A stretch of DNA of 16,012 bases from a virus (taxonomy: Monodnaviria > Loebvirae > Hofneiviricota > Faserviricetes > Tubulavirales > Inoviridae). Location: IMG/VR virus record IMGVR_UViG_2684623189_000001. One strand, written 5' to 3'. Shown piece after piece: positions 1-15,372 of the stretch. The notes under the pieces are model-generated. The model was given only the letters and a program-made list of their open reading frames with translations. It searched no databases and was not told where the DNA came from. Position 1 is the first letter of the stretch, and every line of letters begins with the position of its first letter. The position numbers and the translations under genes were made by a program.

Positions 1-1
1 T

Positions 2-145
2 GACTTTGCCAGAATGATTCCGGCAGCACTGGATAACGTGAAGACTTCATTACCGACAGATTTTCCGGAGAACGTGGTGACGGCAGTTGAAACCAATGTG
101 TTGAGGTTGCACGGTCGGTTAAGCCGAGAATACGGTATTAAGTAA
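2..145 (+). CDS. 3' end of a flanking (probably host) gene, partial; product unknown
   Basis: Frame open from the window edge for 47 codons (…LRLHGRLSREYGIK) to TAA at 143-145. It lies outside the repeated unit. Short, so the open frame is only weakly significant. Confidence 0.3.
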   Translation, partial: DFARMIPAALDNVKTSLPTDFPENVVTAVETNVLRLHGRLSREYGIK

Positions 146-223
146 GATATGGGGTTTTGGTCGTTGTTAATGAGCAGAACAATCATGAACCGCCAACGAC
201 TGGATTCTCCCTTGGTTTATGTT

Positions 224-256
224 GGTGCGCATAATGTACGACTCGTTATGTTGAAA
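224..256 (+). other. dif-like XerC/XerD recombination site at the chromosome-prophage junction (attL-type)
   Basis: GGTGCGCATAA (224-234) matches the XerC-binding arm of the enterobacterial dif site as I recall it, followed by TGTA. After an 11-nt spacer (TGTACGACTCG) comes TTATGTTGAAA (246-256), which resembles the XerD arm TTATGTTAAAT. It sits exactly at the repeat boundary. Confidence 0.6.
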
Positions 257-257
257 A

Positions 258-289
258 GGCCGCTGCGAAAATCGTATCCCGCAGCGGCC
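258..289. terminator. GC-rich hairpin, probable bidirectional rho-independent terminator
   Basis: Perfect 10-bp inverted repeat GGCCGCTGCG / CGCAGCGGCC with a 12-nt loop. On the minus strand it is followed by TTTTCAACAT, downstream of the 159-aa gene; on the plus strand by TCTTT. Confidence 0.55.
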
Positions 290-320
290 TCTTTAGCATA
301 ACGTCATTGTGCGAACCAAT

Positions 321-800
321 TTATATAGAAATGAAAAACTCCTCTTCATTCCTTTTTTTATAATTATCATCCCATATAAGTTTTATTCGGTATTTAGTTT
401 TACTTCCAAAGCTTAGTCCCGCTAAAATTTCAATCCCATGTTGCGGGTGTAATACTTCATATGGAAATTTATCTTCTACATCATGCATGAAAAGATATTC
501 ATTGCCATCGTTATCAGGGAAATGAATTTCTATATTTTTAGCCTCAACTTTCCCTCTATTAAATATCTTGAGTCTATAGTTGTTTTTGGCTATTTTTACG
601 AGGCGGGCACCAAGCTCAGCCTTCATCTCATTAATTGCTGACTTTGTTTCTTTTTCTAGAAGCAACTTACGTAACCTGTCTTGCTCATCCTTTATAACCT
701 TTTGTTCTCTATCACTTTTTCTCGACTTCACTTCTGATGATATGATAGTGTAAATCGATACTACAAGCGCAGCTAAAGCGATGGCATCACTCGTTGTCAT
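321..800 (-). CDS. Hypothetical single-pass membrane protein (N-terminal TM helix, charged helical linker, C-terminal ~90-aa domain); cargo gene
   Basis: 159-aa ORF. N-terminal hydrophobic helix AIALAALVVSIYTIISS, then a K/E/R-rich stretch. Start ATG overlaps the stop of the upstream 91-aa ORF (TAATG); AGGA ribosome-binding site. Markedly AT-rich. No recognisable family. Confidence 0.65.
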   Translation of the reverse strand: MTTSDAIALAALVVSIYTIISSEVKSRKSDREQKVIKDEQDRLRKLLLEKETKSAINEMKAELGARLVKIAKNNYRLKIFNRGKVEAKNIEIHFPDNDGNEYLFMHDVEDKFPYEVLHPQHGIEILAGLSFGSKTKYRIKLIWDDNYKKRNEEEFFISI

Positions 801-1075
801 TATTTAATCCTTATATTTTTACTTCCTTTAAATGCCTTTTTGAGCATATCATTAAACTGTTTTTGAATATCTTTTGTTAACTCTTCTTTTATCTCATCCA
901 CATGGGCGTCAATACTCACCCCGTTTTCTTGGATTAAATCATCATTAGTGAATTCTTTCCCGCAGCCTACACATCTGACGACTTCAGACTCTTCCTCGTG
1001 TTCCATCTCTGTATTTCCGCACACAGGACATAGCAGGGTGATATTTCTATTGTATTTCTCAGGATTTAGTTTCAT
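800..1075 (-). CDS. Hypothetical zinc-ribbon protein (CxxC…CxxC); cargo gene
   Basis: 91-aa ORF with CPVCG …(16 aa)… CVGCG, a C4 zinc-ribbon signature, then an acidic/basic helical tail. AGGAA ribosome-binding site 7 nt upstream. Translationally coupled to the 159-aa ORF. AT-rich. Confidence 0.65.
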   Translation of the reverse strand: MKLNPEKYNRNITLLCPVCGNTEMEHEEESEVVRCVGCGKEFTNDDLIQENGVSIDAHVDEIKEELTKDIQKQFNDMLKKAFKGSKNIRIK

Positions 1076-1103
1076 ATATTTCCTCTCTTCTACGTTTTAT
1101 TGA

Positions 1104-1526
1104 TTACCAGTAATATGAATTTCTTCTGTGCCACCAATAAAGCAGCCCGTATCCGATGATAAGAATTCCGAAAAACATCAACGACATTCCCCAGCCAGTT
1201 CCATACCACGAAACCATATCATCGAAAACCAATCCACCCGTTTCACGTACTCCGGCAGCTTCCTTAAGGATTGGTTTGAATACCGGAATCAGAAGGGCAA
1301 TCGCCAGTGGAGCACCCCAGCGAACAAGACCTGTTTCCATTTTGATCCCGAAAAAGATCCCCGCCCCGACAACAAGCAGCCAGACTATCAGGCCAGGCGC
1401 AGTTTCCAGTGCTGTTTGCCATTCAACATCGAAAGTTTTCATTAGCCAGGCAACAACTGCCAGGCAGAAAGCAAATACGCCGACGACAACCAGTTCAACG
1501 CCGCTTGTTTCGTTGTTTCTACTCAT
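1104..1526 (-). CDS. Hypothetical small integral membrane protein, about 4 TM helices
   Basis: 140-aa ORF with four hydrophobic segments (about aa 10-29, 45-61, 69-83, 113-133) and a W/Y/R-rich C-terminus. AAGGA ribosome-binding site. The opposite-strand ORFs here are low-complexity and implausible. Confidence 0.65.
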   Translation of the reverse strand: MSRNNETSGVELVVVGVFAFCLAVVAWLMKTFDVEWQTALETAPGLIVWLLVVGAGIFFGIKMETGLVRWGAPLAIALLIPVFKPILKEAAGVRETGGLVFDDMVSWYGTGWGMSLMFFGILIIGYGLLYWWHRRNSYYW

Positions 1527-1570
1527 CCTTTTGATCCTTTTTCACTGTTCAAAATTCGCACAATAAAGAA

Positions 1571-1595
1571 CGTGCAGTGTTGGTAATACTGCACG
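1571..1595. terminator. Hairpin between the repressor gene and the cargo genes; putative terminator or attenuator
   Basis: CGTGCAGT / ACTGCACG, 8-bp perfect stem with a 9-nt loop. T-rich on both sides (TTTGTCTCATT on plus, TTCTTTATTG on minus). A second small hairpin GTCTCA-ttcc-TGAGAC lies at 1599-1614. Confidence 0.45.
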
Positions 1596-1625
1596 TTTGT
1601 CTCATTCCTGAGACTGTTAATCCTT

Positions 1626-2072
1626 TTACTCTTCTCCAGACACCGCTTTTTTCATAAACATTTTAGTACTGTAAGTGTATGAACTTAAGGCAGAAACCTG
1701 CCTTGCGAGTGCCAGAATATCTTGTTTTTCCAGTGTCCTGATGTTCCACACGATGAAATTATGTGCGTTAGTGGTTTCTTCATCAGTATATCCATCCGCA
1801 GAAGTGATTAGCTTCCGCTCGGTAGCTTCTTCTTTAACATCAAGAGCATAGCCATAAGCTAAGGTGTTTAAGTCTGCACCCGTAATTTTAGCTATCTGAA
1901 TGATGTCACTGAATTTAGGTTCAGTTTTGCCGGACGCTATCCTGACCAGCGTACTCACGCTAATGCCAGTCTTCTCGGCCAGTTCTTCATAAGTCGAGTG
2001 TTCCAGAATTACCTTTTTGATACGTTCTGCTCTCTGTTTGTCCGCCATAACTTCATGCTCATTGTTGCCCAT
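1626..2072 (-). CDS. XRE/Cro-C1-type helix-turn-helix transcriptional repressor (inovirus lysogeny repressor, RstR-like position)
   Basis: 148 aa. HTH signature YEELAEKTGISVSTLVRIASGKTEP. Divergently transcribed from the Rep gene, the arrangement seen in lysogenic inoviruses. Confidence 0.75.
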   Translation of the reverse strand: MGNNEHEVMADKQRAERIKKVILEHSTYEELAEKTGISVSTLVRIASGKTEPKFSDIIQIAKITGADLNTLAYGYALDVKEEATERKLITSADGYTDEETTNAHNFIVWNIRTLEKQDILALARQVSALSSYTYSTKMFMKKAVSGEE

Positions 2073-2243
2073 CTACTTGGCTCCATCTTAACAGTGGTTT
2101 TTCAATAGTTAGATTTGATGCTCATTTCTGACAATTTAAACATTGCAAATGTATTGACTGTCAGAACTGAGCATATTACATTGTGACCATTCAATCTGCT
2201 CACAAATGACTATTGACACATATTTTGATGGGTGTGACTACTT
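2073..2243. promoter_or_regulatory. Divergent promoter/operator region between repressor and Rep
   Basis: 171-bp AT-rich intergenic region. -35-like hexamers TTGACT (2154-2159) and TTGACA (2213-2218). Inverted repeats TTCTGACA (2126-2133) / TGTCAGAA (2159-2166) and ACATT-GCA-AATGT; recurring TGAC motifs. Confidence 0.5.
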
Positions 2244-3296
2244 ATGATCGACTGGTTTACCGGAATCCTGCCTTGCACACACCGACCGTTACCGGCTGGT
2301 AGTGTCGTCAGCGTCGATGCTGACGGTGCAGTGGAGTGGGAAACAGTAAAACGGTTGACCGTTCGCGGTTCGCATGAGTCCACAATGAAAGTAAGGTCTG
2401 TTGGATCTGATGGTGAAGGTCGGGCAACACATCTCTACATTGACGGTAATCCATCAAAGTTTTTGCAAGGTCACTCTGTTATCGGTTCCGACGATTTGCA
2501 AGGGTTGGTGTTAACAGCTTACGCCAGAATATTGGCATTACTGCATATTCCTCATGATCTACCATCCTATCGGCAGGTCATGGAAGGGCAATTTAAGATC
2601 TCGCGCATCGATATCAATTACATGTATTCATTGTCAACATTAGAAAATGTCCGCGCATGGTTATATGCCGCAGAATTTAAAGCTAAAACTCGCCACGGTC
2701 GCGCCTGTGGTAAAGGTGGCACTGTTTACTTAGGGAAAAACTCCCGTCGTTGGAGCCTGAAATTTTATTCAAAATATGATGAGCATACATCTGGCAAAAA
2801 AGGGCACCAGATGGCAGACGAATTCGTTAAAGCTGGTTTACTGGACTGGTCAAAAGATAAATTACGCATTGAATTAACATTAAGAACAACTGAATTAATT
2901 GATTTGAATCTTACGCTTGGTAATAGCTGGAATATTGAGACGCCCAATAAATTATTCTCTGACTATGTAGGGAGAATAGAAATGAATCAAAATACTATAT
3001 TAACTGATGAAAAAATAATTAATCTCCCAAGAAAAATACAGTCTACATATTTATTGTGGAAGCAGGGCGCGAACATGAAAGAGATGTTACCGAAACCTAC
3101 ATTCTACCGACACCGTAAAGAATTACTTTCTTTCGGAATAGATATTAACTTTTATTGTGAGTCACCGGATTCTAATAACGTTGTTCCGTTGGTTCGTACT
3201 CTTGAAGCCAAACCAGCCAAAATTCCATCATGGGTTTATGAGAAAGGTTTAATTTTCGATTATAACCGTATTTCACATGCCAGTAACTGGCATTAA
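2244..3296 (+). CDS. Rolling-circle replication initiation protein (Rep_trans / pII-like)
   Basis: 350 aa. Motif GTVYLGKNSRRWSLKFYSKYDE fits the Rep_trans-type pattern with catalytic Tyr. First gene of the plus-strand module, as in inoviruses. Confidence 0.75.
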   Translation: MIDWFTGILPCTHRPLPAGSVVSVDADGAVEWETVKRLTVRGSHESTMKVRSVGSDGEGRATHLYIDGNPSKFLQGHSVIGSDDLQGLVLTAYARILALLHIPHDLPSYRQVMEGQFKISRIDINYMYSLSTLENVRAWLYAAEFKAKTRHGRACGKGGTVYLGKNSRRWSLKFYSKYDEHTSGKKGHQMADEFVKAGLLDWSKDKLRIELTLRTTELIDLNLTLGNSWNIETPNKLFSDYVGRIEMNQNTILTDEKIINLPRKIQSTYLLWKQGANMKEMLPKPTFYRHRKELLSFGIDINFYCESPDSNNVVPLVRTLEAKPAKIPSWVYEKGLIFDYNRISHASNWH

Positions 3297-3307
3297 AGGA
3301 GAGTGAT

Positions 3308-3625
3308 ATGTCTAATTATGGTCTTTTTGTAAAAGGTAAAATGCTTGGTGCTCGCCAGCGTAATAAGGTCAATGGTCAGGGATACTATAATGAAATTGGT
3401 GTTGGCTTAGAGATTCCTGATGGTTTTGGCGGCACTAAGCAAGACCAGATTATTATTCGTGTATCTCAGGCTCTTGTTAATGCCGGTGTAATGAATCAGG
3501 CAAATAATTTTATCGGTAAGTTAGTCCAGATACCTGTATATGTTCGCGTCTGGTCAATGGAGGGGAGGGAAGGAGTAACTTATAACATTTCATCAGATGG
3601 CGGCATTACTGAAATAAAAGGCTGA
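3308..3625 (+). CDS. Putative ssDNA-binding protein (pV/RstB-like by position)
   Basis: 105 aa. Strong AAGGAG ribosome-binding site. Immediately downstream of Rep; Gly-rich, beta-type composition. Function is inferred from synteny only. Confidence 0.5.
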   Translation: MSNYGLFVKGKMLGARQRNKVNGQGYYNEIGVGLEIPDGFGGTKQDQIIIRVSQALVNAGVMNQANNFIGKLVQIPVYVRVWSMEGREGVTYNISSDGGITEIKG

Positions 3626-3627
3626 TT

Positions 3628-3879
3628 ATGGATGCATCAGGTTTCGATATTCAGTTTGATAATCATATTCCTGAAAATGGTTACCGTATTGAAGGTTATT
3701 TATGTAATGCGAACAATGCAAAAGAATGTCAGGCAATAATGGTACGTTCTGAACCATTTCATCAAATTGATTATTCTGCAATGGGAAATTACTGGACATT
3801 AGGTTTTGGCTCTGTCCTGCTGCTCTGGCTTTTTTCTGTAGGTGTGGGACAGGTAATAAAGATGGTTCGTACTGCTTGA
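3628..3879 (+). CDS. Hypothetical small protein with C-terminal TM helix (possible minor virion or assembly protein)
   Basis: 83 aa. C-terminal hydrophobic helix WTLGFGSVLLLWLFSVGVG followed by a basic tail. Tightly packed between the ssb-like and coat genes. Confidence 0.4.
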   Translation: MDASGFDIQFDNHIPENGYRIEGYLCNANNAKECQAIMVRSEPFHQIDYSAMGNYWTLGFGSVLLLWLFSVGVGQVIKMVRTA

Positions 3880-3913
3880 ATGCGAACCTTTAAAATGTAA
3901 TGGAGATAGAGTT

Positions 3914-4147
3914 ATGTTTAAAAAAATCGTTAGTTTTCTGGCTGTACCTGCATTAATGGCTGTTTCTGGCGCGACTTTCGCTGCAGAAGGAGCGGCATCA
4001 AGTGGTGTTGATTTATCGCCGCTGACGAACAGCATTGATTTCAGTACAGTTCTGGTTGCGATTATGGCCGTTGCTGCTTCACTGGTAACACTTTATGCCG
4101 GTGTCGCTGGCGTTCGCTGGGTATTGCGTACCGTTAAATCCGCATAA
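3914..4147 (+). CDS. Major coat protein (pVIII-like)
   Basis: 77 aa. Signal peptide MFKKIVSFLAVPALMAVSGATFA with AxA cleavage motif. Mature part has an acidic N-terminus, a hydrophobic core and a basic C-terminus (RWVLRTVKSA). GGAG ribosome-binding site. Confidence 0.85.
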   Translation: MFKKIVSFLAVPALMAVSGATFAAEGAASSGVDLSPLTNSIDFSTVLVAIMAVAASLVTLYAGVAGVRWVLRTVKSA

Positions 4148-4211
4148 ATTCATTATTCATGGGCGATGCAATATCGCCCGTTTTACTTGAGGTTATTATG
4201 GAGATTGAATT

Positions 4212-5924
4212 ATGGAAATTGGGTTCCCTTTTATGGGGGATCGTCTCAGCTTATGTCGTTATTCTTGGGCTAAGAGGCTGACGGTTTATTCCTTTATTTT
4301 TTCCTTTCTCTGGGTTTCCTTTCCCCGATATTCATATTCATTTGTACCAGCAATTGCAGCAGTGGCTGCGCGGGCTGTTATTCCTAAAGTCGTTGGCCGG
4401 GTGCTTGTTCGTCGCTTTGCTGCCAATGATGCGATTTATACGGCATCACAGCTTACAGCAACCCGTGTTTTTGTTGGCCGCGCTGCGGCTAATGCTGCCG
4501 AATACTTGCCTGCTGCCTCATCATACAAAATGAGCGGTGTTGCAACGTGGGCGGGTATTGCTGCTGCTGTATCATCTTTTGTTCCGTCTTCTTTGAGTTC
4601 ATCTGACGGCTCGGTAATGGTAATGACTAACGGTAAAAAGATTTCCGATAATTTATATGAAGTAACGTACAGTGGTCAAAGTGGTGAAAGTAAGACGATA
4701 ACCGTTAATTTTGAACCACAGGAATTAAGTCCGGTAATCCTTCATGTTAGTCGTAATAATGTGGATGCGGGTTCTCCAGTTGTAGGTGTTGAAACAGGAT
4801 ATTCCACGCCAGATAATGCACTTTATTATTATCAGGATTCGAAAGAGCTAATTTATTACTATGGTGATAATCCAACTGAAATTGCCAGAAATTATCTTAA
4901 TGACTATAACTCGCGTACTTATACTGAAACACTAACGAATTTTGAACGCACTGTGACGAATAAAGTTGTCAACAGTAATGGAGATGTATCCTTTACTGAA
5001 CAGAATTATAAGTTTACTTATCCTTCCTCATTTTATGAAATACCTGAGATTACACACTTGTATAGCAACCCGGCCGCATCTTCATTTCCCGCAGGTATTC
5101 CCATGTATGAAAATGTAGCAGGGCTTCCCATGTATTACAGCGTTGCTTATTTAACAGCAGGAAAGCAATATCAGTATCACAACACGCCTTGTAAAACGAC
5201 TAATCAGTCAAATGGTGGATATTCGACGATTTGTGCCGTTCCTGAAAAAGAGGATTACACCGCAAAAGATATTGATGAAAAGAGTGAGCTTACTATCTGG
5301 ACCAATACCAAATATAAAGCCATGACGGAAGTACTGGAGGCTGGAAATATTGAGTCCATGATTGATTATCTGGAGTATCTTGATAGTGTTAGTGTATCGC
5401 CAGCACTTCTTGCCGACATGATTAACGAGCTGTGGTCTGAAGCTGCCGTTAATGCCGATTATAACGGCTTACCGTTTAAAGAGGTTTCACCGGCTGAAGT
5501 AACTTCTGCGATGTCGGAACTTAGGCTATCTCCAACGTTATTAGATATGCTTTCACCTGTATCTGACAGTGCAGGGGCTGACGTCAATATTGATATTACC
5601 ATTAATAACAACTCAGGATCTGACACTGGAAATAATGGCAATATAGATTTGGGAGAAGATCCCGGTGTAAAAGAGCCTGAGCTTGAAGAAACGCCAACGG
5701 CAAGAGATATTTTAACGCCAATTATTAACTTGTTGCCTTTTACAAACGAATTTAACATCGGCTCTCGTTCAGCATCCTGCCCCGTTGTTGAATTCAGCGT
5801 GTTTAATCACCAGTACAGAATTGACTCCCATTGTCCGTTAATTGAGCAGAACAGAAGCGCCGTAGAAACCATATTTCTGATTATATGGGGATTTGTTGCG
5901 CTCCGTATTATTCTGAGTGCCTAA
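4212..5924 (+). CDS. Minor coat / adsorption protein (pIII-like); exact start uncertain
   Basis: 570 aa. Follows the major coat gene. Gly/Ser/Asn-rich linker (NNNSGSDTGNNGNIDLGEDPG) and C-terminal membrane anchor (IFLIIWGFVALRIILSA). N-terminus is atypical; alternative start at Met8 (4233). Confidence 0.65.
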   Translation: MEIGFPFMGDRLSLCRYSWAKRLTVYSFIFSFLWVSFPRYSYSFVPAIAAVAARAVIPKVVGRVLVRRFAANDAIYTASQLTATRVFVGRAAANAAEYLPAASSYKMSGVATWAGIAAAVSSFVPSSLSSSDGSVMVMTNGKKISDNLYEVTYSGQSGESKTITVNFEPQELSPVILHVSRNNVDAGSPVVGVETGYSTPDNALYYYQDSKELIYYYGDNPTEIARNYLNDYNSRTYTETLTNFERTVTNKVVNSNGDVSFTEQNYKFTYPSSFYEIPEITHLYSNPAASSFPAGIPMYENVAGLPMYYSVAYLTAGKQYQYHNTPCKTTNQSNGGYSTICAVPEKEDYTAKDIDEKSELTIWTNTKYKAMTEVLEAGNIESMIDYLEYLDSVSVSPALLADMINELWSEAAVNADYNGLPFKEVSPAEVTSAMSELRLSPTLLDMLSPVSDSAGADVNIDITINNNSGSDTGNNGNIDLGEDPGVKEPELEETPTARDILTPIINLLPFTNEFNIGSRSASCPVVEFSVFNHQYRIDSHCPLIEQNRSAVETIFLIIWGFVALRIILSA

Positions 5925-5936
5925 AGGAGTGCAACT

Positions 5937-6224
5937 ATGTTTGGGATTCTGATTAGTGCATTAAATACTTTGTTAGGTTTTGTATTCCGGTCATTGATTA
6001 TTAAATTCGTCGTATTCTTTGCGCTGTATTTTGTAGTCCAGGGCTTCGTTGAAATCCTTGTTGAGTTACTGCCAGATTCAAGCAATCTCTCATCGCTGTT
6101 TGCCAATTTATCAGACGGATTCTGGTACTTCATTAACCTGAGTAAATTACCACAGGGGATTAGTATGATTATCTCCGCAATGGCTACTCGTTTTATTATT
6201 CGACGTATTCCTGTTATAGGGTGA
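5937..6224 (+). CDS. Minor coat protein (pVI-like)
   Basis: 95 aa, strongly hydrophobic. AAGGAG ribosome-binding site. Lies between the pIII-like and Zot/pI genes, as pVI does in inoviruses. Confidence 0.6.
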   Translation: MFGILISALNTLLGFVFRSLIIKFVVFFALYFVVQGFVEILVELLPDSSNLSSLFANLSDGFWYFINLSKLPQGISMIISAMATRFIIRRIPVIG

Positions 6225-6227
6225 GTT

Positions 6228-7253
6228 ATGGCTATTTCTGCATATATTGGCATACCCGGCTCAGGAAAAAGTTATGAAGCCGTTTGCAATGTCATTATTC
6301 CGGCATTTACCAGCGGCCGGAGAGTTGTGACGAACATTTATGGTTTACAAAAAGATAAAATCACCGAACGTTATCCTGATGCAACGGGAGAAATTATTGT
6401 TGTGGATAATGATGATGTGCTTAAAGCAGATTTCTTTCCTTTTAAAGGTGGGGAAGGGAGCTTTTGCCAGTTTGGTGATTTAATTGTTATTGATGAAGCA
6501 TGGCGAATCTTCGGTAGCGATAAGGATATGACGGCTGAGAAGAAATCATTTATTGCTGAACATCGTCATTTTACGCACCCTGAAACGGGTATTAGCTGTG
6601 ATTTGGTTATTGTAAATCAGTCACTTTCTAATATTGCTCGCTTTCTGAAAGACAAAATAGAAACAACTTACCGGATGCGCAAGCTGAAAGCGTTGGGCCT
6701 GAATAATCATTACTGCATTGACGTATATTCAGGCCACAAAATCTATAAAAGCAACCTCGTCACCAGTTATCGCAATAAATATAACCCTGATATTTTTGAA
6801 CTTTACAAAAGTTATGAAGGAAATAACGGTAATGAAAAGCAGACAGATAAACGCCAGAGCATCTGGAATTCTGGCAAAGTCAGGTTCTTTCTTGTGCTTT
6901 TTCCATTGATGTTTATCGGGTCAGGCTGGCTGATTTACTCATTTTTCAGCACGTTTGGCCGAAGCGATCCCTCGCCAGATTTGACTACAACAGATGTACG
7001 TGATGCGGCCATGTTTCGTTCTTCCGCTGCTACTCCAGCACCAGATACTCCCTCAGAACCAGCTGAACCGCCACTTTCAACCGAGTGGCGTATATCAGGG
7101 AGAATGACCAGTGAAGGCAGGGCGTTTGTGATTCTTGTTAATGGTGCCGGTGTTTTGCGTGCCGTTCCTGCATCCAGTTTTAATTACAAAGGGATGTTGA
7201 TGAGCGGAATTATTGATGGTGAGCGTGTGACGCTTTATACGGGGAAAAAATAA
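6228..7253 (+). CDS. Zot / pI-family morphogenesis (assembly) ATPase
   Basis: 341 aa. Walker A GIPGSGKSY, Walker B LIVIDEAW, single TM segment (VRFFLVLFPLMFIGSGWLIYSFF) followed by a periplasmic C-terminal region. Confidence 0.85.
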   Translation: MAISAYIGIPGSGKSYEAVCNVIIPAFTSGRRVVTNIYGLQKDKITERYPDATGEIIVVDNDDVLKADFFPFKGGEGSFCQFGDLIVIDEAWRIFGSDKDMTAEKKSFIAEHRHFTHPETGISCDLVIVNQSLSNIARFLKDKIETTYRMRKLKALGLNNHYCIDVYSGHKIYKSNLVTSYRNKYNPDIFELYKSYEGNNGNEKQTDKRQSIWNSGKVRFFLVLFPLMFIGSGWLIYSFFSTFGRSDPSPDLTTTDVRDAAMFRSSAATPAPDTPSEPAEPPLSTEWRISGRMTSEGRAFVILVNGAGVLRAVPASSFNYKGMLMSGIIDGERVTLYTGKK

Positions 7254-8585: not shown

Positions 8586-8834
8586 ATGTCTGTAAAAAAT
8601 AAGGCGCGTGACCGACTTCCCGGTGGCCGCCTTAAGTCTTATCGTCGTGTAGGTTCACATTTTGCCAGTTGTGCCAGATGGTTTGATAAATCGCCGTCCT
8701 GGTATCGCAATATGATGATGACCAGGCCTGAGCGTCGTGAAGTCAGAAGGCTTCTCAATCAGGTAATGCGTGGTCATGATGCTGACGGCATTGCTTTTCC
8801 GGTCAGTCATCGTCCGTTTGTTTATTGGTGGTGA
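8586..8834 (+). CDS. Hypothetical small basic protein
   Basis: 82 aa, Arg/Trp-rich. GAGG ribosome-binding site 8 nt upstream. In the accessory region between secretin and att site. No family recognised. Confidence 0.45.
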   Translation: MSVKNKARDRLPGGRLKSYRRVGSHFASCARWFDKSPSWYRNMMMTRPERREVRRLLNQVMRGHDADGIAFPVSHRPFVYWW

Positions 8835-9018
8835 ATTTCGTACGCACGAAATTTCACGCATAAACACCAGACAAAAAATCGTTAACTGTCTGTTTTGAAA
8901 GATAACGCCGGTCAGTGACAAAACTTGTTTTGTTGCTGTCCGGGGTTGGCCAAGCCGTACAGTTTCCATTTTCAGCGTTATGGCTGATTCGGCGCGGCAG
9001 CATTCATCGGGGCTTATC

Positions 9019-9228
9019 ATGGAAAAATTCATGACACATCAGGAGCTGAAAGTGATGCTTCTTAAAGATCCAGCATTCCGGGCTGCTTATGAAGCTGAGA
9101 GCCAGAACCCGCAATCCGGTTACCAGATTATCCGGCATCATGGTGATGGCACTGAAGAAGTGGTGTTTGATTCTCGTGTATCAGGTACAGATTTACCAAC
9201 TAACTGGATGAACAGGCCTGATTGGTGA
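9019..9228 (+). CDS. Hypothetical small protein (ORF track places the start at 8980; 9019 preferred)
   Basis: About 69 aa from the ATG at 9019, which has a GGGG ribosome-binding site. N-terminal motif ELKVMLLKDPAFRAAYEA. Last gene before the att site. Confidence 0.4.
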   Translation: MEKFMTHQELKVMLLKDPAFRAAYEAESQNPQSGYQIIRHHGDGTEEVVFDSRVSGTDLPTNWMNRPDW

Positions 9229-9368
9229 GGTCAGGCCGTTCACTTACTGCTGACAGACATTTGATTCTGATTCGTTTGGAGAAACGGATGATTTTGAATC
9301 ACTGTCGATAGTAGCCAGTTGACGGCCAGTGTCAACGATTCCCGCCAGATTCTGCCATCCTTACCATT

Positions 9369-9401
9369 GGTGCGCATAATGTACGACTCGTTATGTTGAA
9401 A
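9369..9401 (+). other. dif-like XerC/XerD site at the copy1/copy2 junction (attP-type)
   Basis: Identical to 224-256 but flanked on the left by prophage sequence rather than chromosomal flank. Confidence 0.6.
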
Positions 9402-9402
9402 A

Positions 9403-9434
9403 GGCCGCTGCGAAAATCGTATCCCGCAGCGGCC
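9403..9434. terminator. GC-rich hairpin terminator (copy 2)
   Basis: Identical to 258-289. In the array it also lies downstream of the plus-strand secretin and small-ORF genes of copy 1. Confidence 0.55.
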
Positions 9435-9465
9435 TCTTTAGCATAACGTCATTGTGCGAACCAAT

Positions 9466-9945
9466 TTATATAGAAATGAAAAACTCCTCTTCATTCCTTT
9501 TTTTATAATTATCATCCCATATAAGTTTTATTCGGTATTTAGTTTTACTTCCAAAGCTTAGTCCCGCTAAAATTTCAATCCCATGTTGCGGGTGTAATAC
9601 TTCATATGGAAATTTATCTTCTACATCATGCATGAAAAGATATTCATTGCCATCGTTATCAGGGAAATGAATTTCTATATTTTTAGCCTCAACTTTCCCT
9701 CTATTAAATATCTTGAGTCTATAGTTGTTTTTGGCTATTTTTACGAGGCGGGCACCAAGCTCAGCCTTCATCTCATTAATTGCTGACTTTGTTTCTTTTT
9801 CTAGAAGCAACTTACGTAACCTGTCTTGCTCATCCTTTATAACCTTTTGTTCTCTATCACTTTTTCTCGACTTCACTTCTGATGATATGATAGTGTAAAT
9901 CGATACTACAAGCGCAGCTAAAGCGATGGCATCACTCGTTGTCAT
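9466..9945 (-). CDS. Hypothetical single-pass membrane protein, cargo gene (copy 2)
   Basis: Identical translation to 321-800 at offset +9145. Confidence 0.65.
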   Translation of the reverse strand: MTTSDAIALAALVVSIYTIISSEVKSRKSDREQKVIKDEQDRLRKLLLEKETKSAINEMKAELGARLVKIAKNNYRLKIFNRGKVEAKNIEIHFPDNDGNEYLFMHDVEDKFPYEVLHPQHGIEILAGLSFGSKTKYRIKLIWDDNYKKRNEEEFFISI

Positions 9946-10220
9946 TATTTAATCCTTATATTTTTACTTCCTTTAAATGCCTTTTTGAGCATATCATTAA
10001 ACTGTTTTTGAATATCTTTTGTTAACTCTTCTTTTATCTCATCCACATGGGCGTCAATACTCACCCCGTTTTCTTGGATTAAATCATCATTAGTGAATTC
10101 TTTCCCGCAGCCTACACATCTGACGACTTCAGACTCTTCCTCGTGTTCCATCTCTGTATTTCCGCACACAGGACATAGCAGGGTGATATTTCTATTGTAT
10201 TTCTCAGGATTTAGTTTCAT
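9945..10220 (-). CDS. Hypothetical zinc-ribbon protein, cargo gene (copy 2)
   Basis: Identical translation to 800-1075. Confidence 0.65.
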   Translation of the reverse strand: MKLNPEKYNRNITLLCPVCGNTEMEHEEESEVVRCVGCGKEFTNDDLIQENGVSIDAHVDEIKEELTKDIQKQFNDMLKKAFKGSKNIRIK

Positions 10221-10248
10221 ATATTTCCTCTCTTCTACGTTTTATTGA

Positions 10249-10671
10249 TTACCAGTAATATGAATTTCTTCTGTGCCACCAATAAAGCAGCCCGTATCCG
10301 ATGATAAGAATTCCGAAAAACATCAACGACATTCCCCAGCCAGTTCCATACCACGAAACCATATCATCGAAAACCAATCCACCCGTTTCACGTACTCCGG
10401 CAGCTTCCTTAAGGATTGGTTTGAATACCGGAATCAGAAGGGCAATCGCCAGTGGAGCACCCCAGCGAACAAGACCTGTTTCCATTTTGATCCCGAAAAA
10501 GATCCCCGCCCCGACAACAAGCAGCCAGACTATCAGGCCAGGCGCAGTTTCCAGTGCTGTTTGCCATTCAACATCGAAAGTTTTCATTAGCCAGGCAACA
10601 ACTGCCAGGCAGAAAGCAAATACGCCGACGACAACCAGTTCAACGCCGCTTGTTTCGTTGTTTCTACTCAT
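10249..10671 (-). CDS. Hypothetical 4-TM membrane protein (copy 2)
   Basis: Identical translation to 1104-1526. Confidence 0.65.
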   Translation of the reverse strand: MSRNNETSGVELVVVGVFAFCLAVVAWLMKTFDVEWQTALETAPGLIVWLLVVGAGIFFGIKMETGLVRWGAPLAIALLIPVFKPILKEAAGVRETGGLVFDDMVSWYGTGWGMSLMFFGILIIGYGLLYWWHRRNSYYW

Positions 10672-10715
10672 CCTTTTGATCCTTTTTCACTGTTCAAAAT
10701 TCGCACAATAAAGAA

Positions 10716-10740
10716 CGTGCAGTGTTGGTAATACTGCACG
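10716..10740. terminator. Hairpin between repressor and cargo genes (copy 2)
   Basis: Identical to 1571-1595. Confidence 0.45.
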
Positions 10741-10770
10741 TTTGTCTCATTCCTGAGACTGTTAATCCTT

Positions 10771-11217
10771 TTACTCTTCTCCAGACACCGCTTTTTTCAT
10801 AAACATTTTAGTACTGTAAGTGTATGAACTTAAGGCAGAAACCTGCCTTGCGAGTGCCAGAATATCTTGTTTTTCCAGTGTCCTGATGTTCCACACGATG
10901 AAATTATGTGCGTTAGTGGTTTCTTCATCAGTATATCCATCCGCAGAAGTGATTAGCTTCCGCTCGGTAGCTTCTTCTTTAACATCAAGAGCATAGCCAT
11001 AAGCTAAGGTGTTTAAGTCTGCACCCGTAATTTTAGCTATCTGAATGATGTCACTGAATTTAGGTTCAGTTTTGCCGGACGCTATCCTGACCAGCGTACT
11101 CACGCTAATGCCAGTCTTCTCGGCCAGTTCTTCATAAGTCGAGTGTTCCAGAATTACCTTTTTGATACGTTCTGCTCTCTGTTTGTCCGCCATAACTTCA
11201 TGCTCATTGTTGCCCAT
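10771..11217 (-). CDS. XRE-type HTH repressor (copy 2)
   Basis: Identical translation to 1626-2072. Confidence 0.75.
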   Translation of the reverse strand: MGNNEHEVMADKQRAERIKKVILEHSTYEELAEKTGISVSTLVRIASGKTEPKFSDIIQIAKITGADLNTLAYGYALDVKEEATERKLITSADGYTDEETTNAHNFIVWNIRTLEKQDILALARQVSALSSYTYSTKMFMKKAVSGEE

Positions 11218-11388
11218 CTACTTGGCTCCATCTTAACAGTGGTTTTTCAATAGTTAGATTTGATGCTCATTTCTGACAATTTAAACATTGCAAATGTATT
11301 GACTGTCAGAACTGAGCATATTACATTGTGACCATTCAATCTGCTCACAAATGACTATTGACACATATTTTGATGGGTGTGACTACTT
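11218..11388. promoter_or_regulatory. Divergent promoter/operator region (copy 2)
   Basis: Identical to 2073-2243. Confidence 0.5.
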
Positions 11389-12441
11389 ATGATCGACTGG
11401 TTTACCGGAATCCTGCCTTGCACACACCGACCGTTACCGGCTGGTAGTGTCGTCAGCGTCGATGCTGACGGTGCAGTGGAGTGGGAAACAGTAAAACGGT
11501 TGACCGTTCGCGGTTCGCATGAGTCCACAATGAAAGTAAGGTCTGTTGGATCTGATGGTGAAGGTCGGGCAACACATCTCTACATTGACGGTAATCCATC
11601 AAAGTTTTTGCAAGGTCACTCTGTTATCGGTTCCGACGATTTGCAAGGGTTGGTGTTAACAGCTTACGCCAGAATATTGGCATTACTGCATATTCCTCAT
11701 GATCTACCATCCTATCGGCAGGTCATGGAAGGGCAATTTAAGATCTCGCGCATCGATATCAATTACATGTATTCATTGTCAACATTAGAAAATGTCCGCG
11801 CATGGTTATATGCCGCAGAATTTAAAGCTAAAACTCGCCACGGTCGCGCCTGTGGTAAAGGTGGCACTGTTTACTTAGGGAAAAACTCCCGTCGTTGGAG
11901 CCTGAAATTTTATTCAAAATATGATGAGCATACATCTGGCAAAAAAGGGCACCAGATGGCAGACGAATTCGTTAAAGCTGGTTTACTGGACTGGTCAAAA
12001 GATAAATTACGCATTGAATTAACATTAAGAACAACTGAATTAATTGATTTGAATCTTACGCTTGGTAATAGCTGGAATATTGAGACGCCCAATAAATTAT
12101 TCTCTGACTATGTAGGGAGAATAGAAATGAATCAAAATACTATATTAACTGATGAAAAAATAATTAATCTCCCAAGAAAAATACAGTCTACATATTTATT
12201 GTGGAAGCAGGGCGCGAACATGAAAGAGATGTTACCGAAACCTACATTCTACCGACACCGTAAAGAATTACTTTCTTTCGGAATAGATATTAACTTTTAT
12301 TGTGAGTCACCGGATTCTAATAACGTTGTTCCGTTGGTTCGTACTCTTGAAGCCAAACCAGCCAAAATTCCATCATGGGTTTATGAGAAAGGTTTAATTT
12401 TCGATTATAACCGTATTTCACATGCCAGTAACTGGCATTAA
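11389..12441 (+). CDS. Rolling-circle replication initiation protein (copy 2)
   Basis: Identical translation to 2244-3296. Confidence 0.75.
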   Translation: MIDWFTGILPCTHRPLPAGSVVSVDADGAVEWETVKRLTVRGSHESTMKVRSVGSDGEGRATHLYIDGNPSKFLQGHSVIGSDDLQGLVLTAYARILALLHIPHDLPSYRQVMEGQFKISRIDINYMYSLSTLENVRAWLYAAEFKAKTRHGRACGKGGTVYLGKNSRRWSLKFYSKYDEHTSGKKGHQMADEFVKAGLLDWSKDKLRIELTLRTTELIDLNLTLGNSWNIETPNKLFSDYVGRIEMNQNTILTDEKIINLPRKIQSTYLLWKQGANMKEMLPKPTFYRHRKELLSFGIDINFYCESPDSNNVVPLVRTLEAKPAKIPSWVYEKGLIFDYNRISHASNWH

Positions 12442-12452
12442 AGGAGAGTGAT

Positions 12453-12770
12453 ATGTCTAATTATGGTCTTTTTGTAAAAGGTAAAATGCTTGGTGCTCGC
12501 CAGCGTAATAAGGTCAATGGTCAGGGATACTATAATGAAATTGGTGTTGGCTTAGAGATTCCTGATGGTTTTGGCGGCACTAAGCAAGACCAGATTATTA
12601 TTCGTGTATCTCAGGCTCTTGTTAATGCCGGTGTAATGAATCAGGCAAATAATTTTATCGGTAAGTTAGTCCAGATACCTGTATATGTTCGCGTCTGGTC
12701 AATGGAGGGGAGGGAAGGAGTAACTTATAACATTTCATCAGATGGCGGCATTACTGAAATAAAAGGCTGA
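12453..12770 (+). CDS. Putative ssDNA-binding protein (copy 2)
   Basis: Identical translation to 3308-3625. Confidence 0.5.
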   Translation: MSNYGLFVKGKMLGARQRNKVNGQGYYNEIGVGLEIPDGFGGTKQDQIIIRVSQALVNAGVMNQANNFIGKLVQIPVYVRVWSMEGREGVTYNISSDGGITEIKG

Positions 12771-12772
12771 TT

Positions 12773-13024
12773 ATGGATGCATCAGGTTTCGATATTCAGT
12801 TTGATAATCATATTCCTGAAAATGGTTACCGTATTGAAGGTTATTTATGTAATGCGAACAATGCAAAAGAATGTCAGGCAATAATGGTACGTTCTGAACC
12901 ATTTCATCAAATTGATTATTCTGCAATGGGAAATTACTGGACATTAGGTTTTGGCTCTGTCCTGCTGCTCTGGCTTTTTTCTGTAGGTGTGGGACAGGTA
13001 ATAAAGATGGTTCGTACTGCTTGA
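12773..13024 (+). CDS. Hypothetical small membrane protein (copy 2)
   Basis: Identical translation to 3628-3879. Confidence 0.4.
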   Translation: MDASGFDIQFDNHIPENGYRIEGYLCNANNAKECQAIMVRSEPFHQIDYSAMGNYWTLGFGSVLLLWLFSVGVGQVIKMVRTA

Positions 13025-13058
13025 ATGCGAACCTTTAAAATGTAATGGAGATAGAGTT

Positions 13059-13292
13059 ATGTTTAAAAAAATCGTTAGTTTTCTGGCTGTACCTGCATTA
13101 ATGGCTGTTTCTGGCGCGACTTTCGCTGCAGAAGGAGCGGCATCAAGTGGTGTTGATTTATCGCCGCTGACGAACAGCATTGATTTCAGTACAGTTCTGG
13201 TTGCGATTATGGCCGTTGCTGCTTCACTGGTAACACTTTATGCCGGTGTCGCTGGCGTTCGCTGGGTATTGCGTACCGTTAAATCCGCATAA
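13059..13292 (+). CDS. Major coat protein (copy 2)
   Basis: Identical translation to 3914-4147. Confidence 0.85.
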   Translation: MFKKIVSFLAVPALMAVSGATFAAEGAASSGVDLSPLTNSIDFSTVLVAIMAVAASLVTLYAGVAGVRWVLRTVKSA

Positions 13293-13356
13293 ATTCATTA
13301 TTCATGGGCGATGCAATATCGCCCGTTTTACTTGAGGTTATTATGGAGATTGAATT

Positions 13357-15069: not shown

Positions 15070-15081
15070 AGGAGTGCAACT

Positions 15082-15369: not shown

Positions 15370-15372
15370 GTT

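What the first reader, a model, noticed from the sequence alone, without database searches (positions are those of the whole stretch)
321..1075. AT-rich, translationally coupled zinc-ribbon plus membrane-protein pair on the lysogeny side of the prophage
Two minus-strand genes sit between the att site and the repressor, where inoviruses usually carry lysogenic-conversion cargo. One encodes a 91-aa CxxC-x16-CxxC zinc-ribbon protein, the other a 159-aa protein with an N-terminal TM helix, a charged helical linker and a C-terminal globular domain. Their stop and start overlap (TAATG), so they are probably made together and may form a complex. By eye the pair is about one-third GC, clearly lower than the adjacent 140-aa gene and the structural module, suggesting separate acquisition. 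They are co-oriented with the repressor and bracketed by hairpin terminators, so they could be expressed from the quiescent prophage. I recognise no family for either protein. Plausible roles are superinfection exclusion or anti-phage defence, a membrane-acting toxin/immunity pair, or a host-modulating factor; all of this is inference.
Basis: partly seen in the sequence, partly recalled or inferred. Interest (0 to 1): 0.78.

Follow-up and report, generated by a model that had tools for sequence, protein, structure and literature searches.

The report
Swappable two-gene cargo in filamentous prophage
The two genes are real and always travel together as a small mobile unit of unknown function, most likely a phage-exclusion or other conflict module, sitting in an exchangeable cargo slot of a filamentous virus integrated in E. 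coli; the same unit also rides on a jumping gene that targets the same chromosomal site.

Summary
Two overlapping (TAATG) minus-strand genes at 321-1075 encode a 91-aa CxxC…CxxC zinc-ribbon protein (Z) and a 159-aa membrane-anchored protein (B). GC is 34.8% against 41.9% for the phage unit.

- **Source:** the window is E. coli SF-173, a 9145-bp CUS-1/YpfΦ-type inovirus prophage in tandem at dif.
- **Cargo slot:** the pair is an exchangeable cassette with sharp boundaries at ~321 and ~1100. Related prophages carry a REase-like pair, an AbiJ-like gene or other genes there instead.
- **Families:** Z belongs to the NCBIfam ECs_2282 family. B's homologues are annotated DUF8453. Neither is characterised.
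- **Other carriers:** the pair is also a passenger of dif-targeting IS1202-family transporter ISs on plasmids. It survives in dif-side prophage remnants.
- **Corrections:** the "downstream terminator" is the apex of a folded attP. The pair has no promoter space of its own.

Function remains untested. Context favours a defence or exclusion module. A natural Z-less allele argues against a simple toxin–antitoxin pair.

The parts
1..145 (+). 3' end of host hipA (chromosomal flank left of dif)
   Evidence: hipA ends at L001 11896, which equals window 145; the ORF at 14-145 is in frame.
224..256 (+). dif-like Xer site 1 (attL): GGTGCGCATAA-TGTACGACTCG-TTATGTTGAAA. The tandem repeat starts at 222.
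   Evidence: It pairs with site 2 in the ssDNA fold.
258..289 (.). GC-rich hairpin (GGCCGCTGCG...CGCAGCGGCC). It is the apex of the folded attP and a possible transcription stop for the cargo operon.
   Evidence: DNA fold -30.5 kcal/mol, z -7.0. RNA fold -39.4 kcal/mol followed by UUUUC.
291..317 (-). Inverted dif-like Xer site 2: GGTTCGCACAA-TGACG-TTATGCTAAAG. It is the left boundary element of the cargo slot.
   Evidence: 18/22 to the Xer consensus. The same 75 nt (247-321) sits inside IS1202-family transporter ISs at 90-96% identity.
321..800 (-). Gene B: 159-aa bitopic inner-membrane protein. N-out TM at residues 6-24, a long charged helix, and a cytoplasmic Ig-like beta-sandwich. phrog_6723; homologues annotated DUF8453.
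800..1075 (-). [not shown]
   Evidence: (65.5 bits against a cut-off of 37).
1076..1103 (-). 28-nt spacer holding only a ribosome-binding site (GAGAGGAAATATATG). The right cassette boundary lies at 1098-1104.
1104..1526 (-). 140-aa hydrophobic backbone gene (phrog_4174), upstream member of the same transcription unit. It is conserved across most cargo alleles.
1527..1625 (-). Leader between the repressor and the 140-aa gene, with a hairpin at 1570-1596. It is retained and fused directly to Z in the Lonsdalea remnant, so it is the inferred expression signal for the cargo.
1626..2072 (-). HTH_3 / RstR-like phage repressor, co-oriented with the cargo.
9369..9462 (.). Second copy of the att structure (sites 1 and 2 plus hairpin) at the junction of the tandem prophages.
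   Evidence: offset 9145, identical from 222/9367.
9466..10220 (-). Second, identical copy of the B (9466-9945) and Z (9945-10220) pair.

Best explanation
The pair is a self-contained, horizontally mobile two-gene cargo module, Z followed by B. It occupies the exchangeable attL-proximal cargo slot of a CUS-1/YpfΦ-type filamentous prophage integrated in tandem at the E. coli dif site.

Shown:
- The cassette consists of the two ORFs plus a ribosome-binding site. It lies between the conserved 140-aa gene and the phage's folded attP.
- Related prophages carry unrelated cargo at this position.
- Z and B are adjacent in all but one lineage found, co-diverge, and are under purifying selection.
- The same module is a passenger of dif-targeting IS1202-family transporter ISs. 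It also survives in dif-side prophage remnants.

Inferred:
- The pair is transcribed in the lysogen from the leader upstream of the 140-aa gene.
- B is tethered to the inner membrane by an N-out/C-in anchor.

For: - **Source and tandem prophage:**
- **Sharp cassette boundaries and at least seven cargo alleles on a 95-98% identical backbone:**
- **Alternative cargo with defence-associated domains:** PF18742 REase DpnII-MboI (7e-59) with PADLOC helical-REase and PDC-S35; AbiJ_NTD4 plus DUF7014 with PDC-S32.
- **Z–B linkage:** adjacent on the same strand in 59 of 59 fetched loci, 42 of them distinct pairs in about 30 contexts, down to 32% identity across Alpha-, Beta- and Gammaproteobacteria. The Z and B distance matrices correlate at r=0.84, with 0 of 2000 Mantel permutations reaching that value. 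ω is 0.04-0.23.
- **Family size:** B has 1263 clusters, almost all 145-160 aa. The Z profile found 1157 proteins, and the 120 best listed are nearly all ~90 aa.
- **Structure and topology:**
- **Neighbours:** the Old nuclease, Type I HsdR and PDC-S06 genes are the next large ORF beside the pair. PD-T4-5, CBASS cyclase with a 2TM effector, PD-Lambda-3, integrases, an Rhs toxin, and ParDE/TacAT lie within a few genes.
- **Retention in remnants:** an intact pair is fused to the 140-aa gene's leader in a dif-side remnant that has lost all phage functions.
- **Published precedent:** filamentous prophages carry a variable accessory locus enriched in defence genes (PMC11630473). The YpfΦ and CUS-1 attL ORFs differ and are of unknown function (PMC4266046).
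Against: - No experiment and no homology to any characterised defence, toxin or exclusion protein. PADLOC gives nothing for B and only weak zinc-ribbon-level hits for Z.
- Physical interaction between Z and B is inferred, not modelled.
- Neighbourhoods are mixed and include housekeeping genes.
- No σ70-like promoter was detected on the minus strand, so expression in the lysogen is unproven.
- One lineage keeps B and gene C without Z, so the two genes are not strictly inseparable.
Confidence: 0.45

Rival explanations
1. Addiction (toxin–antitoxin) module. B would be a membrane-acting toxin and Z its labile protein antitoxin. The pair would stabilise the prophage, IS or plasmid that carries it, with any defence effect being secondary.
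For: Two small, overlapping genes with the smaller DNA/protein-binding-type gene first. The pair sits beside ParDE and TacAT modules on plasmids. It is retained intact in prophage remnants that lost everything else. Z has weak similarity to the MqsA-type zinc-ribbon antitoxin N-terminus (TIGR03830, E=0.0013, below cut-off). B residues 1-63 have a weak holin-like match (phrog_1350, E=0.0059).
Against: About 24 E. coli chromosomes carry B intact with Z precisely deleted, and that B is under purifying selection (ω=0.10). B has no similarity to known toxins. Z has no HTH or other operator-binding domain.
Confidence: 0.15
2. Element-serving function tied to filamentous-phage or Xer/dif biology. Examples would be excluding other filamentous phages, or modulating FtsK/XerCD at the septum to favour integration or retention of dif-integrating elements.
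For: In Enterobacterales the pair is found almost only next to Xer sites: the inovirus attP, a dif-targeting transporter IS, and dif-side remnants. A second, distantly related inovirus (Zot 45% identical) carries it at the equivalent place. B places a cytoplasmic domain at the membrane, where FtsK acts (established knowledge).
Against: The same slot holds unrelated cargo such as nuclease-like and AbiJ-like genes, so it is a general cargo bay. More than 25 loci in Pseudomonas, Variovorax, Stenotrophomonas, Caulobacter and others have the pair with no Xer-like site within 1.5 kb at the threshold used (at least 17 of 22 matches to the E. coli dif consensus). Most related prophages lack the pair.
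Confidence: 0.12
3. Counter-defence cargo. Z–B would protect the incoming phage, IS or plasmid from host immunity, for example by alleviating restriction.
For: Z's ribbon weakly resembles Lar restriction-alleviation proteins (PF14354, 19.8 bits, below the 28.6 cut-off). It is carried by mobile elements that must establish in new hosts.
Against: The Lar match is at the generic zinc-ribbon level and below threshold. A membrane-anchored partner is not typical of known anti-restriction proteins (my own knowledge). The pair is retained in chromosomal remnants with no mobile element left to protect.
Confidence: 0.08
4. Host-modulating or virulence factor (lysogenic conversion).
For: The position is analogous to ctxAB-type cargo in dif-integrating inoviruses. 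SF-173 is a blood isolate. CUS-1 and YpfΦ have modest fitness effects in vivo (PMC4266046).
Against: The family is spread through soil, plant and marine Proteobacteria. Both proteins are cytoplasmic-facing with no secretion signal. Only 28 of 5426 complete E. coli genomes carry this allele, from human, pig, possum and river-water sources.
Confidence: 0.04

Closest known systems
attL-proximal accessory ORFs of YpfΦ (YPO2271/YPO2272) and CUS-1 (orf1/orf1a)
   Same: Same phage type, with the same position between dif/attL and the RstR-like repressor. These are two small ORFs of unknown function that differ between otherwise near-identical phages (PMC4266046).
   Different: The content is different. 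Here it is a zinc-ribbon plus DUF8453-type pair. I did not compare directly with the YPO2271/2272 sequences, and the window phage has no megablast match in the phage collection.
Accessory-gene hot spot of filamentous and tailless Vibrio prophages, enriched in defence and TA systems (PMC11630473)
   Same: A defined variable locus in small dif-integrating prophages, with conserved flanks and cargo often related to defence. Alleles here include REase-like and AbiJ-like genes.
   Different: A different phage lineage and host. The Z–B module itself is not among known systems.
Transporter insertion sequences of the IS1202 family (tISKpn21, tISKpn65; ISAba32 subgroup) that target XerCD sites
   Same: On E. 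coli, Klebsiella and Serratia plasmids the pair lies between a ~466-aa ISNCY/IS1202-family transposase and the element's right inverted repeat, flanked by degenerate dif-like sites. Published tISs carry unrelated passenger ORFs of unknown function and insert 5 bp from dif-like sites.
   Different: The window contains no transposase or IS ends. It shares only the cargo and the 75-nt dif-like-plus-hairpin boundary. I did not find any description of Z–B(–C) or AbiJ-like passengers in the papers read.
Sensor plus membrane-effector abortive-infection systems (e.g. CBASS Cap15-type TM plus beta-barrel effectors, RexAB)
   Same: A small cytoplasmic partner combined with a membrane-anchored protein whose soluble beta-rich domain faces the cytoplasm. 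Carried by prophages and mobile elements. This is an analogy from my own knowledge.
   Different: No sequence or specific fold relationship. B has one TM helix and a generic Ig-like sandwich. No nucleotide-signalling enzyme is present.
Type II toxin–antitoxin operons
   Same: A bicistronic, overlapping pair with the small gene first, mobile, and found next to other TA loci.
   Different: No known toxin or antitoxin fold. B persists without Z in nature.

Membership tests
NCBIfam NF047912 (ECs_2282 family putative zinc-binding protein), for Z | Score above the curated cut-off of the family HMM | tested here: met
   65.5 bits against a cut-off of 37, covering residues 12-65 and the whole 60-position model. 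PGAP uses this name in SF-173.
NCBIfam NF047912 (ECs_2282 family putative zinc-binding protein), for Z | Four conserved zinc-ligand cysteines (CxxC...CxxC) | tested here: met
   C16, C19, C35 and C38 are invariant in 22 diverse homologues. Actual zinc binding was not tested.
DUF8453, for B | Match to the Pfam DUF8453 model | not testable with these tools
   The model is absent from the local Pfam copy, which gives no significant hit. PGAP labels the 155-aa plasmid homologue DUF8453. That homologue matches my B-family profile at E≈1e-50. PGAP itself calls the SF-173 protein 'hypothetical'.
PHROG families phrog_6723 (B) and phrog_4852 (Z) | Significant HMM match | tested here: met
   B at 7e-95 over 159/159 positions. 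Z at 7e-18 but only over positions 1-82 of a 194-position profile. Both PHROGs are of unknown function.
CUS-1/YpfΦ-type dif-integrating inovirus (the carrier) | Inovirus core genes (replication protein II/X, ssDNA-binding protein, coat, pIII-like, Zot/pI-like, pIV secretin) plus an RstR-like repressor | tested here: met
   (PGAP names).
CUS-1/YpfΦ-type dif-integrating inovirus (the carrier) | Integration at chromosomal dif without an integrase, often in tandem | tested here: met
   Next to hipA with a dif-like junction. The 9145-bp unit is repeated exactly, and no integrase ORF is present.
CTXφ-type folded single-stranded attP | Two inverted dif-like sites that pair into a forked hairpin on one strand | tested here: met
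   ΔG -30.5 kcal/mol, z=-7.0. The XerC and XerD arms pair and the central region bulges. Site 2 scores 18/22 to the Xer consensus.
CTXφ-type folded single-stranded attP | XerCD-catalysed strand exchange on the folded substrate | not testable with these tools
   Needs in vitro or in vivo recombination assays.
Known or candidate anti-phage defence systems (PADLOC-DB v2.0.0) | All components match the models of one system | tested here: not met
   B has no hit. Z has only partial hits to PDC-S64 (4.8e-7, positions 195-253 of 339), HEC-08, PDC-M14A and the Cas12f zinc-ribbon regions.
Known or candidate anti-phage defence systems (PADLOC-DB v2.0.0) | Protection against phage on heterologous expression | not testable with these tools
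   Requires experiment.
Type II toxin–antitoxin system | Adjacent co-transcribed small genes | tested here: met
   1-nt overlap, conserved across the family.
Type II toxin–antitoxin system | Toxin cannot be maintained without its antitoxin | tested here: not met
   B is intact without Z in ~24 E. coli chromosomes (15 at ≥99% and 9 at 95-99% identity), with ω=0.10. Caveat: gene C is present in that allele and could substitute.
Type II toxin–antitoxin system | Recognisable toxin or antitoxin domain | tested here: not met
Holin | Small membrane protein encoded in a lysis cassette with an endolysin | tested here: not met
   Only a weak phrog_1350 match (E=0.0059). There is no endolysin in the phage. 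Inoviruses are released by secretion without lysis (established knowledge).
IS1202-family transporter IS (as carrier of this window's copy) | Transposase gene and terminal inverted repeats flanking the cargo | tested here: not met
   The window has no transposase ORF or IR. Only the 75-nt dif-like/hairpin segment is shared. The feature is met for the plasmid copies L003, L004 and L010.

The most novel reading that the evidence does not exclude
Z–B is a previously unrecognised immune (phage- or mobile-element-excluding) system built from a cytoplasmic zinc-ribbon sensor and a membrane-tethered Ig-like protein. In addition, the attP-proximal slot of CUS-1/YpfΦ-type inoviruses and the passenger bay of dif-targeting IS1202-family transporter ISs form one cassette-exchange network in Enterobacterales, bounded by a shared dif-like site plus hairpin. 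That would be an enterobacterial counterpart of the Acinetobacter dif modules, shuttling defence-type cargo between phages, plasmids and the chromosomal terminus.
Probability: 0.25. Interest if true: 0.8.

Novelty: new variant of a known kind. Interest (0 to 1): 0.6.

Why it matters
- **An open question about these phages.** CUS-1/YpfΦ-type phages are linked to invasive E. coli K1 and pandemic Y. pestis, and their att-proximal ORFs have stayed unexplained for two decades. This work shows the position is a cargo bay with many alleles, some carrying defence-associated domains. That offers a concrete reason why lysogens might keep these phages.

- **A well-defined candidate for testing.** Z–B is small (755 bp), widespread (B alone has more than 1200 protein clusters) and almost always paired. 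It has a natural Z-less variant and a natural minimal remnant to guide experiments.

- **A possible route for cargo exchange.** The same cargo and the same 75-nt dif-like boundary occur in an inovirus and in Xer-site-targeting transporter ISs. This points to cassette exchange among elements that converge on dif, which I did not find described in the papers I read.

Tried and rejected
- **Family scans.** Pfam, NCBIfam and PADLOC gave no functional family for B. Z matched only at the generic zinc-ribbon level (S27e, TFIIB, Lar, LysW, Cas12f), apart from ECs_2282.

- **Solved structures.** PDB sequence-profile searches found nothing for B and only generic ribbons for Z.

- **Phage collection.** No match for the phage DNA, for B or for Z.

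- **Domain fusions.** I looked for informative fusions of Z or B. None appeared: both families are uniformly small stand-alone proteins.

- **Literature.** No paper contains DUF8453, ECs_2282 or NF047912. A search for a characterised zinc-ribbon plus TM two-gene defence system turned up none.

- **Rfam.** Nothing real; the two sub-threshold hits are the hairpin.

- **Promoter scan.** No σ70-like site on the minus strand.

- **Corrected recollection.** I initially recalled that CUS-1 puvA was the att-side cargo. The review shows puvA is a virion (pIII-type) gene, so I dropped that idea.

- **Corrected IS interpretation.** I first thought the IS merely abutted the cargo. The absence of any internal right inverted repeat showed the cargo lies inside the IS.

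- **GC as evidence.** I rejected low GC as proof of foreign origin, because backbone segments are equally AT-rich.
Full report
**1. What the window is**

The window matches the E. coli SF-173 chromosome at 100% identity. Bases 1-145 are the 3' end of hipA. From base 222 a 9145-bp unit begins and repeats exactly, so 222-6867 equals 9367-16012.

The unit encodes the following:
- a replication protein of the II/X family
- an ssDNA-binding protein and small coat proteins
- a pIII-like protein
- a Zot/pI-like ATPase
- a pIV secretin
- a divergently oriented HTH (RstR-like) repressor

There is no integrase. The junction reads GGTGCGCATAATGTACGACTCGTTATGTTGAAA, a dif-like Xer site. This is a CUS-1/YpfΦ-type filamentous prophage, integrated in tandem at dif (compare the YpfΦ review PMC4266046). 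The phage record collection has no megablast match to it.

**2. Checking the observation**

The minus strand reads TAATG at the junction.

Z has cysteines at 16, 19, 35 and 38, so the spacing is x15, not x16.

The AlphaFold model of B (pLDDT 82.6) has one long helix at residues 3-59 and an eight-strand β-sandwich at 63-158. The hydrophobic segment is residues 6-24. Across 21 homologues the N-terminal flank is slightly acidic, and the 15 residues after the anchor hold 4.8 Lys+Arg on average. This predicts N-out/C-in topology, which puts the helix and β-sandwich in the cytoplasm alongside Z.

Z's model (pLDDT 81) shows a three-stranded zinc ribbon, a helix at 52-83 and a low-confidence tail.

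GC is 0.348 for the pair, 0.419 for the unit and 0.480 for the neighbouring 140-aa gene. Backbone stretches such as 2851-3150 (0.313) are just as AT-rich, so GC alone proves little.

**3. The pair is an exchangeable cassette**

Related E. coli prophages are 94-98% identical to the window up to ~320-322 and again from ~1098-1104, but differ in between. The alleles seen are:

| Strain | Cargo in the slot |
|---|---|
| N10 | 264-aa protein with a DpnII/MboI-type REase domain, plus DUF6953 |
| STIN_95 | 309-aa AbiJ_NTD4 + DUF7014 protein (STM4504/CBY_0614 family) |
| LSN03 | 110-aa protein of unknown function |
| E1 | 250-aa protein of unknown function |
| 82.0311 | two ORFs (120 and 129 aa) that also replace the 140-aa gene |

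The Z–B allele is present in 28 of 5426 complete E. coli genomes.

The cassette holds the two ORFs plus 28 nt carrying a ribosome-binding site. It has no room for a promoter of its own, and no σ70-like site was found on that strand.

The review of YpfΦ already notes that the two attL-side ORFs differ between YpfΦ and CUS-1 and have no known function. A Vibrio study describes an accessory hot spot in filamentous prophages that is enriched in defence genes (PMC11630473).

**4. The flanking hairpins**

Folded as single-stranded DNA, window 215-330 forms a long forked hairpin:
- Site 1 (224-256) pairs with an inverted second dif-like site (291-317; GGTTCGCACAA-TGACG-TTATGCTAAAG).
- The GC stem at 258-289 forms the apex.
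- ΔG is -30.5 kcal/mol with z=-7.0, and none of 200 shuffles folds as well.

This is the layout of a CTXφ-type folded attP. On the minus-strand RNA the same stem (-39.4 kcal/mol) is followed by UUUUC, so it could also stop transcription.

The other hairpin (1570-1596; z=-4.2) lies between the repressor and the 140-aa gene, not next to the pair.

**5. Z and B are a conserved, almost inseparable unit**

Z passes the NCBIfam ECs_2282 model at 65.5 bits against a cut-off of 37. B fits phrog_6723 end to end, and its plasmid homologues are annotated DUF8453 by PGAP. Neither family has a known function, and no paper in the library mentions them.

A profile search found 1263 B-family clusters, nearly all 145-160 aa. 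The Z profile found 1157 proteins, and the 120 best listed are nearly all ~90 aa. Neither family shows domain fusions.

In every one of 59 fetched loci that encode a B homologue, a Z gene lies immediately upstream on the same strand, overlapping or within ~15 nt. These loci comprise 42 distinct pairs in about 30 non-redundant contexts. They span Enterobacterales, Vibrio, Pseudomonas, Xanthomonadales, Comamonadaceae, Caulobacter, Sphingomonadales and Desulfobulbus, down to 32% identity.

Pairwise distances of Z and B correlate at r=0.84, with 0 of 2000 Mantel permutations reaching that value. dN/dS is 0.04-0.23 in all settings.

The most conserved features are:
- **In B:** small residues in the anchor (A8, A11, L12), an LLLEKE motif in the helix, and an LKIFNxG…A.N motif opening the sandwich.

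**6. Where else the module lives**

*Transporter insertion sequences.* On 93 plasmids, 85 of them conjugative, and in some chromosomes, the order is:
- a ~466-aa ISNCY/IS1202-family transposase
- ~165-195 nt of spacer
- cargo
- the same dif-like site 2 plus hairpin (90-96% identical to window 247-321)
- the element's right inverted repeat

This arrangement is shown. Each unit has only one right-end repeat, and it lies after the cargo, so the cargo is inside the IS.

The cargo in this bay also varies: Z–B–C or an AbiJ-like gene in E. coli ColV-type plasmids, Z–B–C or an ASCH-domain gene in Klebsiella, and Z–B in Serratia (89% protein identity to the window). Published work shows that this IS subgroup (ISAba32/ISKpn21) inserts 5 bp from XerCD sites. 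It also shows that tISKpn21, tISKpn65 and tISRel10 carry unrelated passenger ORFs of unknown function (bioRxiv 10.1101/2022.12.17.520857; PMC10132070).

*Prophage remnants at dif.* The apparently stand-alone chromosomal copies in Lonsdalea, Pragia and Pluralibacter lie 0.5-0.9 kb from the host's own dif (20-21 of 22 matches).

The Lonsdalea locus is a prophage remnant. It runs dif, then 180 nt of the phage right end, a repressor C-terminal fragment, the leader hairpin, Z–B, and the att hairpin. A deletion removed the entire 140-aa ORF and about 8 codons of Z. This fused the 140-aa gene's leader and ribosome-binding site to Z. That pins the expression signal to the 1527-1625 region or further upstream, and it shows the pair being kept when all phage functions are gone.

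*A second inovirus.* A distantly related inovirus (Zot 45% and pIV 43% identical) carries Z–B plus a 120-aa gene at the equivalent position.

*Other contexts.* In Citrobacter the pair sits beside a BrxR-type regulator and a truncated integrase at the mnmE hot spot.

In more distant hosts, an Old nuclease, a Type I HsdR and PDC-S06 ATPases are the next large ORF beside the pair. PD-T4-5, CBASS cyclase with a 2TM effector, PD-Lambda-3, integrases and an Rhs toxin lie within a few genes. Ordinary genes such as chemoreceptors and a peptidase also appear. The neighbourhood evidence is therefore suggestive, not conclusive.

**7. What it most likely does**

Shown:
- It is a real, selected, two-protein unit.
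- It moves as cargo among Xer-exploiting and other mobile elements.
- In this phage it sits in a bay that also holds genes with defence-associated domains.

Inferred:
- It is co-expressed with the 140-aa gene in the lysogen.
- Z binds B at the inner face of the membrane.

I consider a conflict function (exclusion or abortive infection) the most likely role, with Z as sensor or regulator and B as membrane effector or scaffold. I put this at about 0.4.

A plain toxin–antitoxin reading is weakened by the UTME-14-type allele. Z has been cleanly deleted there, leaving 59 nt of its upstream region and its last ~20 nt. B remains intact in about two dozen genomes and is under purifying selection. Gene C could compensate in that allele.

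A function specific to Xer or filamentous-phage biology is unlikely to be general. Most distant loci have no Xer-like site nearby at the threshold used (at least 17 of 22 matches to the E. coli dif consensus), and the bay accepts unrelated cargo.

**8. Novelty and verdict**

The carrier phage type, the existence of a variable att-side locus, and passenger-carrying IS1202-family elements are all published.

I did not find the following in the papers I searched and read:
- the identity of this cargo as a widespread, almost always paired Z–B module
- the catalogue of alleles in the E. coli CUS-1-type slot, some with defence-associated domains
- the shared 75-nt dif-like/hairpin boundary linking the phage slot to the passenger bay of dif-targeting transporter ISs

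The finding is real and worth experimental follow-up, but its function is unproven.

Noticed in passing
window 222-6867 and 9367-16012: The window holds 1.75 copies of a 9145-bp prophage in exact head-to-tail tandem, so every feature of the finding occurs twice (second pair at 9466-10220). SF-173 has two places for the cassette in its chromosome.
   Followed up: yes
window 215-330 (and 9360-9475): Two inverted dif-like sites flanking a GC stem fold as ssDNA into a forked hairpin (ΔG -30.5 kcal/mol, z -7.0). This resembles a CTXφ-type folded attP.
   Followed up: partly
L003 6400-11200, L066, L010, L007 11700-14480, L004 5900-9000 (plasmids of E. coli, Klebsiella, Serratia): An IS1202-family (ISKpn21/65-like) transporter IS carries variable passengers (Z-B-C, Z-B, AbiJ-like, ASCH). 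For the first three, it also carries the same 75-nt dif-like site plus hairpin found at window 247-321, just inside its right inverted repeat. The ASCH version keeps only CTTTTCAACAT at that junction, hinting that phage cassettes were captured by recombination at that microhomology.
   Followed up: partly
L063 1298-2294 (E. coli UTME-14 and ~24 other genomes): A slot allele with a B homologue (155 aa) and gene C (123 aa) but with Z cleanly deleted. Only 59 nt of Z's upstream region and its last ~20 nt remain. B and C are still under purifying selection (ω 0.10 and 0.15).
   Followed up: yes
L012 6180-7552 (Lonsdalea), L013 6072-7563 (Pragia), L029 2720-4481 (Pluralibacter): Mini prophage remnants next to the chromosomal dif site that retain essentially only Z-B and the att hairpin. 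In Lonsdalea a deletion fuses the 140-aa gene's leader to codon ~9 of Z, removing the otherwise invariant Tyr8.
   Followed up: yes
L003 8124-8495, L010 7517-7900, L063 1298-1669: A third gene C (123-127 aa, soluble, no family in Pfam or PADLOC) follows B in the plasmid and Klebsiella clades but is absent from the window's clade. A 120-aa ORF follows B in the distant inovirus L022.
   Followed up: partly
window 1104-1526: The 140-aa hydrophobic protein (phrog_4174; no Pfam, NCBIfam or PADLOC hit) is conserved in most slot alleles and heads the cargo transcription unit. Its role is unknown, and it is replaced together with the cargo in strain 82.0311.
   Followed up: partly
window 8586-8834 and 8980-9228: Two small attR-side ORFs of unknown function (phrog_6642 for the second). 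By position they correspond to the two attR-adjacent ORFs (YPO2280a, YPO2281) described for YpfΦ; homology was not checked. PGAP calls a shorter version of the second (198 nt).
   Followed up: no
L025 (Candidatus Nanosynbacter MAG), L051 (Methanoculleus MAG), L034 (Bacteroidetes MAG): Contigs carrying proteobacterial-type Z-B copies are binned into phylogenetically implausible MAGs. L025 is a 95-97% identical CUS-type phage. These are probably mis-binned or contaminant contigs.
   Followed up: no
L032-L040 (Variovorax, Xenophilus, Hydrogenophaga, Stutzerimonas, Rhizobiaceae): Near-identical Z-B copies with shared flanks, including a PDC-S06-type AAA ATPase two genes downstream, occur in several unrelated genera. 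This implies recent spread on a common mobile element that I did not identify.
   Followed up: partly
window 2851-3150 and 4651-5100: Backbone segments (the 3' part of the replication gene, the middle of the pIII-like gene) are as AT-rich (0.31-0.36 GC) as the cargo, so composition does not single out the cassette.
   Followed up: yes
window 4212-5924: The longest pIII-like ORF starts at 4212 (570 aa), but PGAP annotates a start about 150 nt downstream (1563 nt). The true start is unresolved.
   Followed up: no
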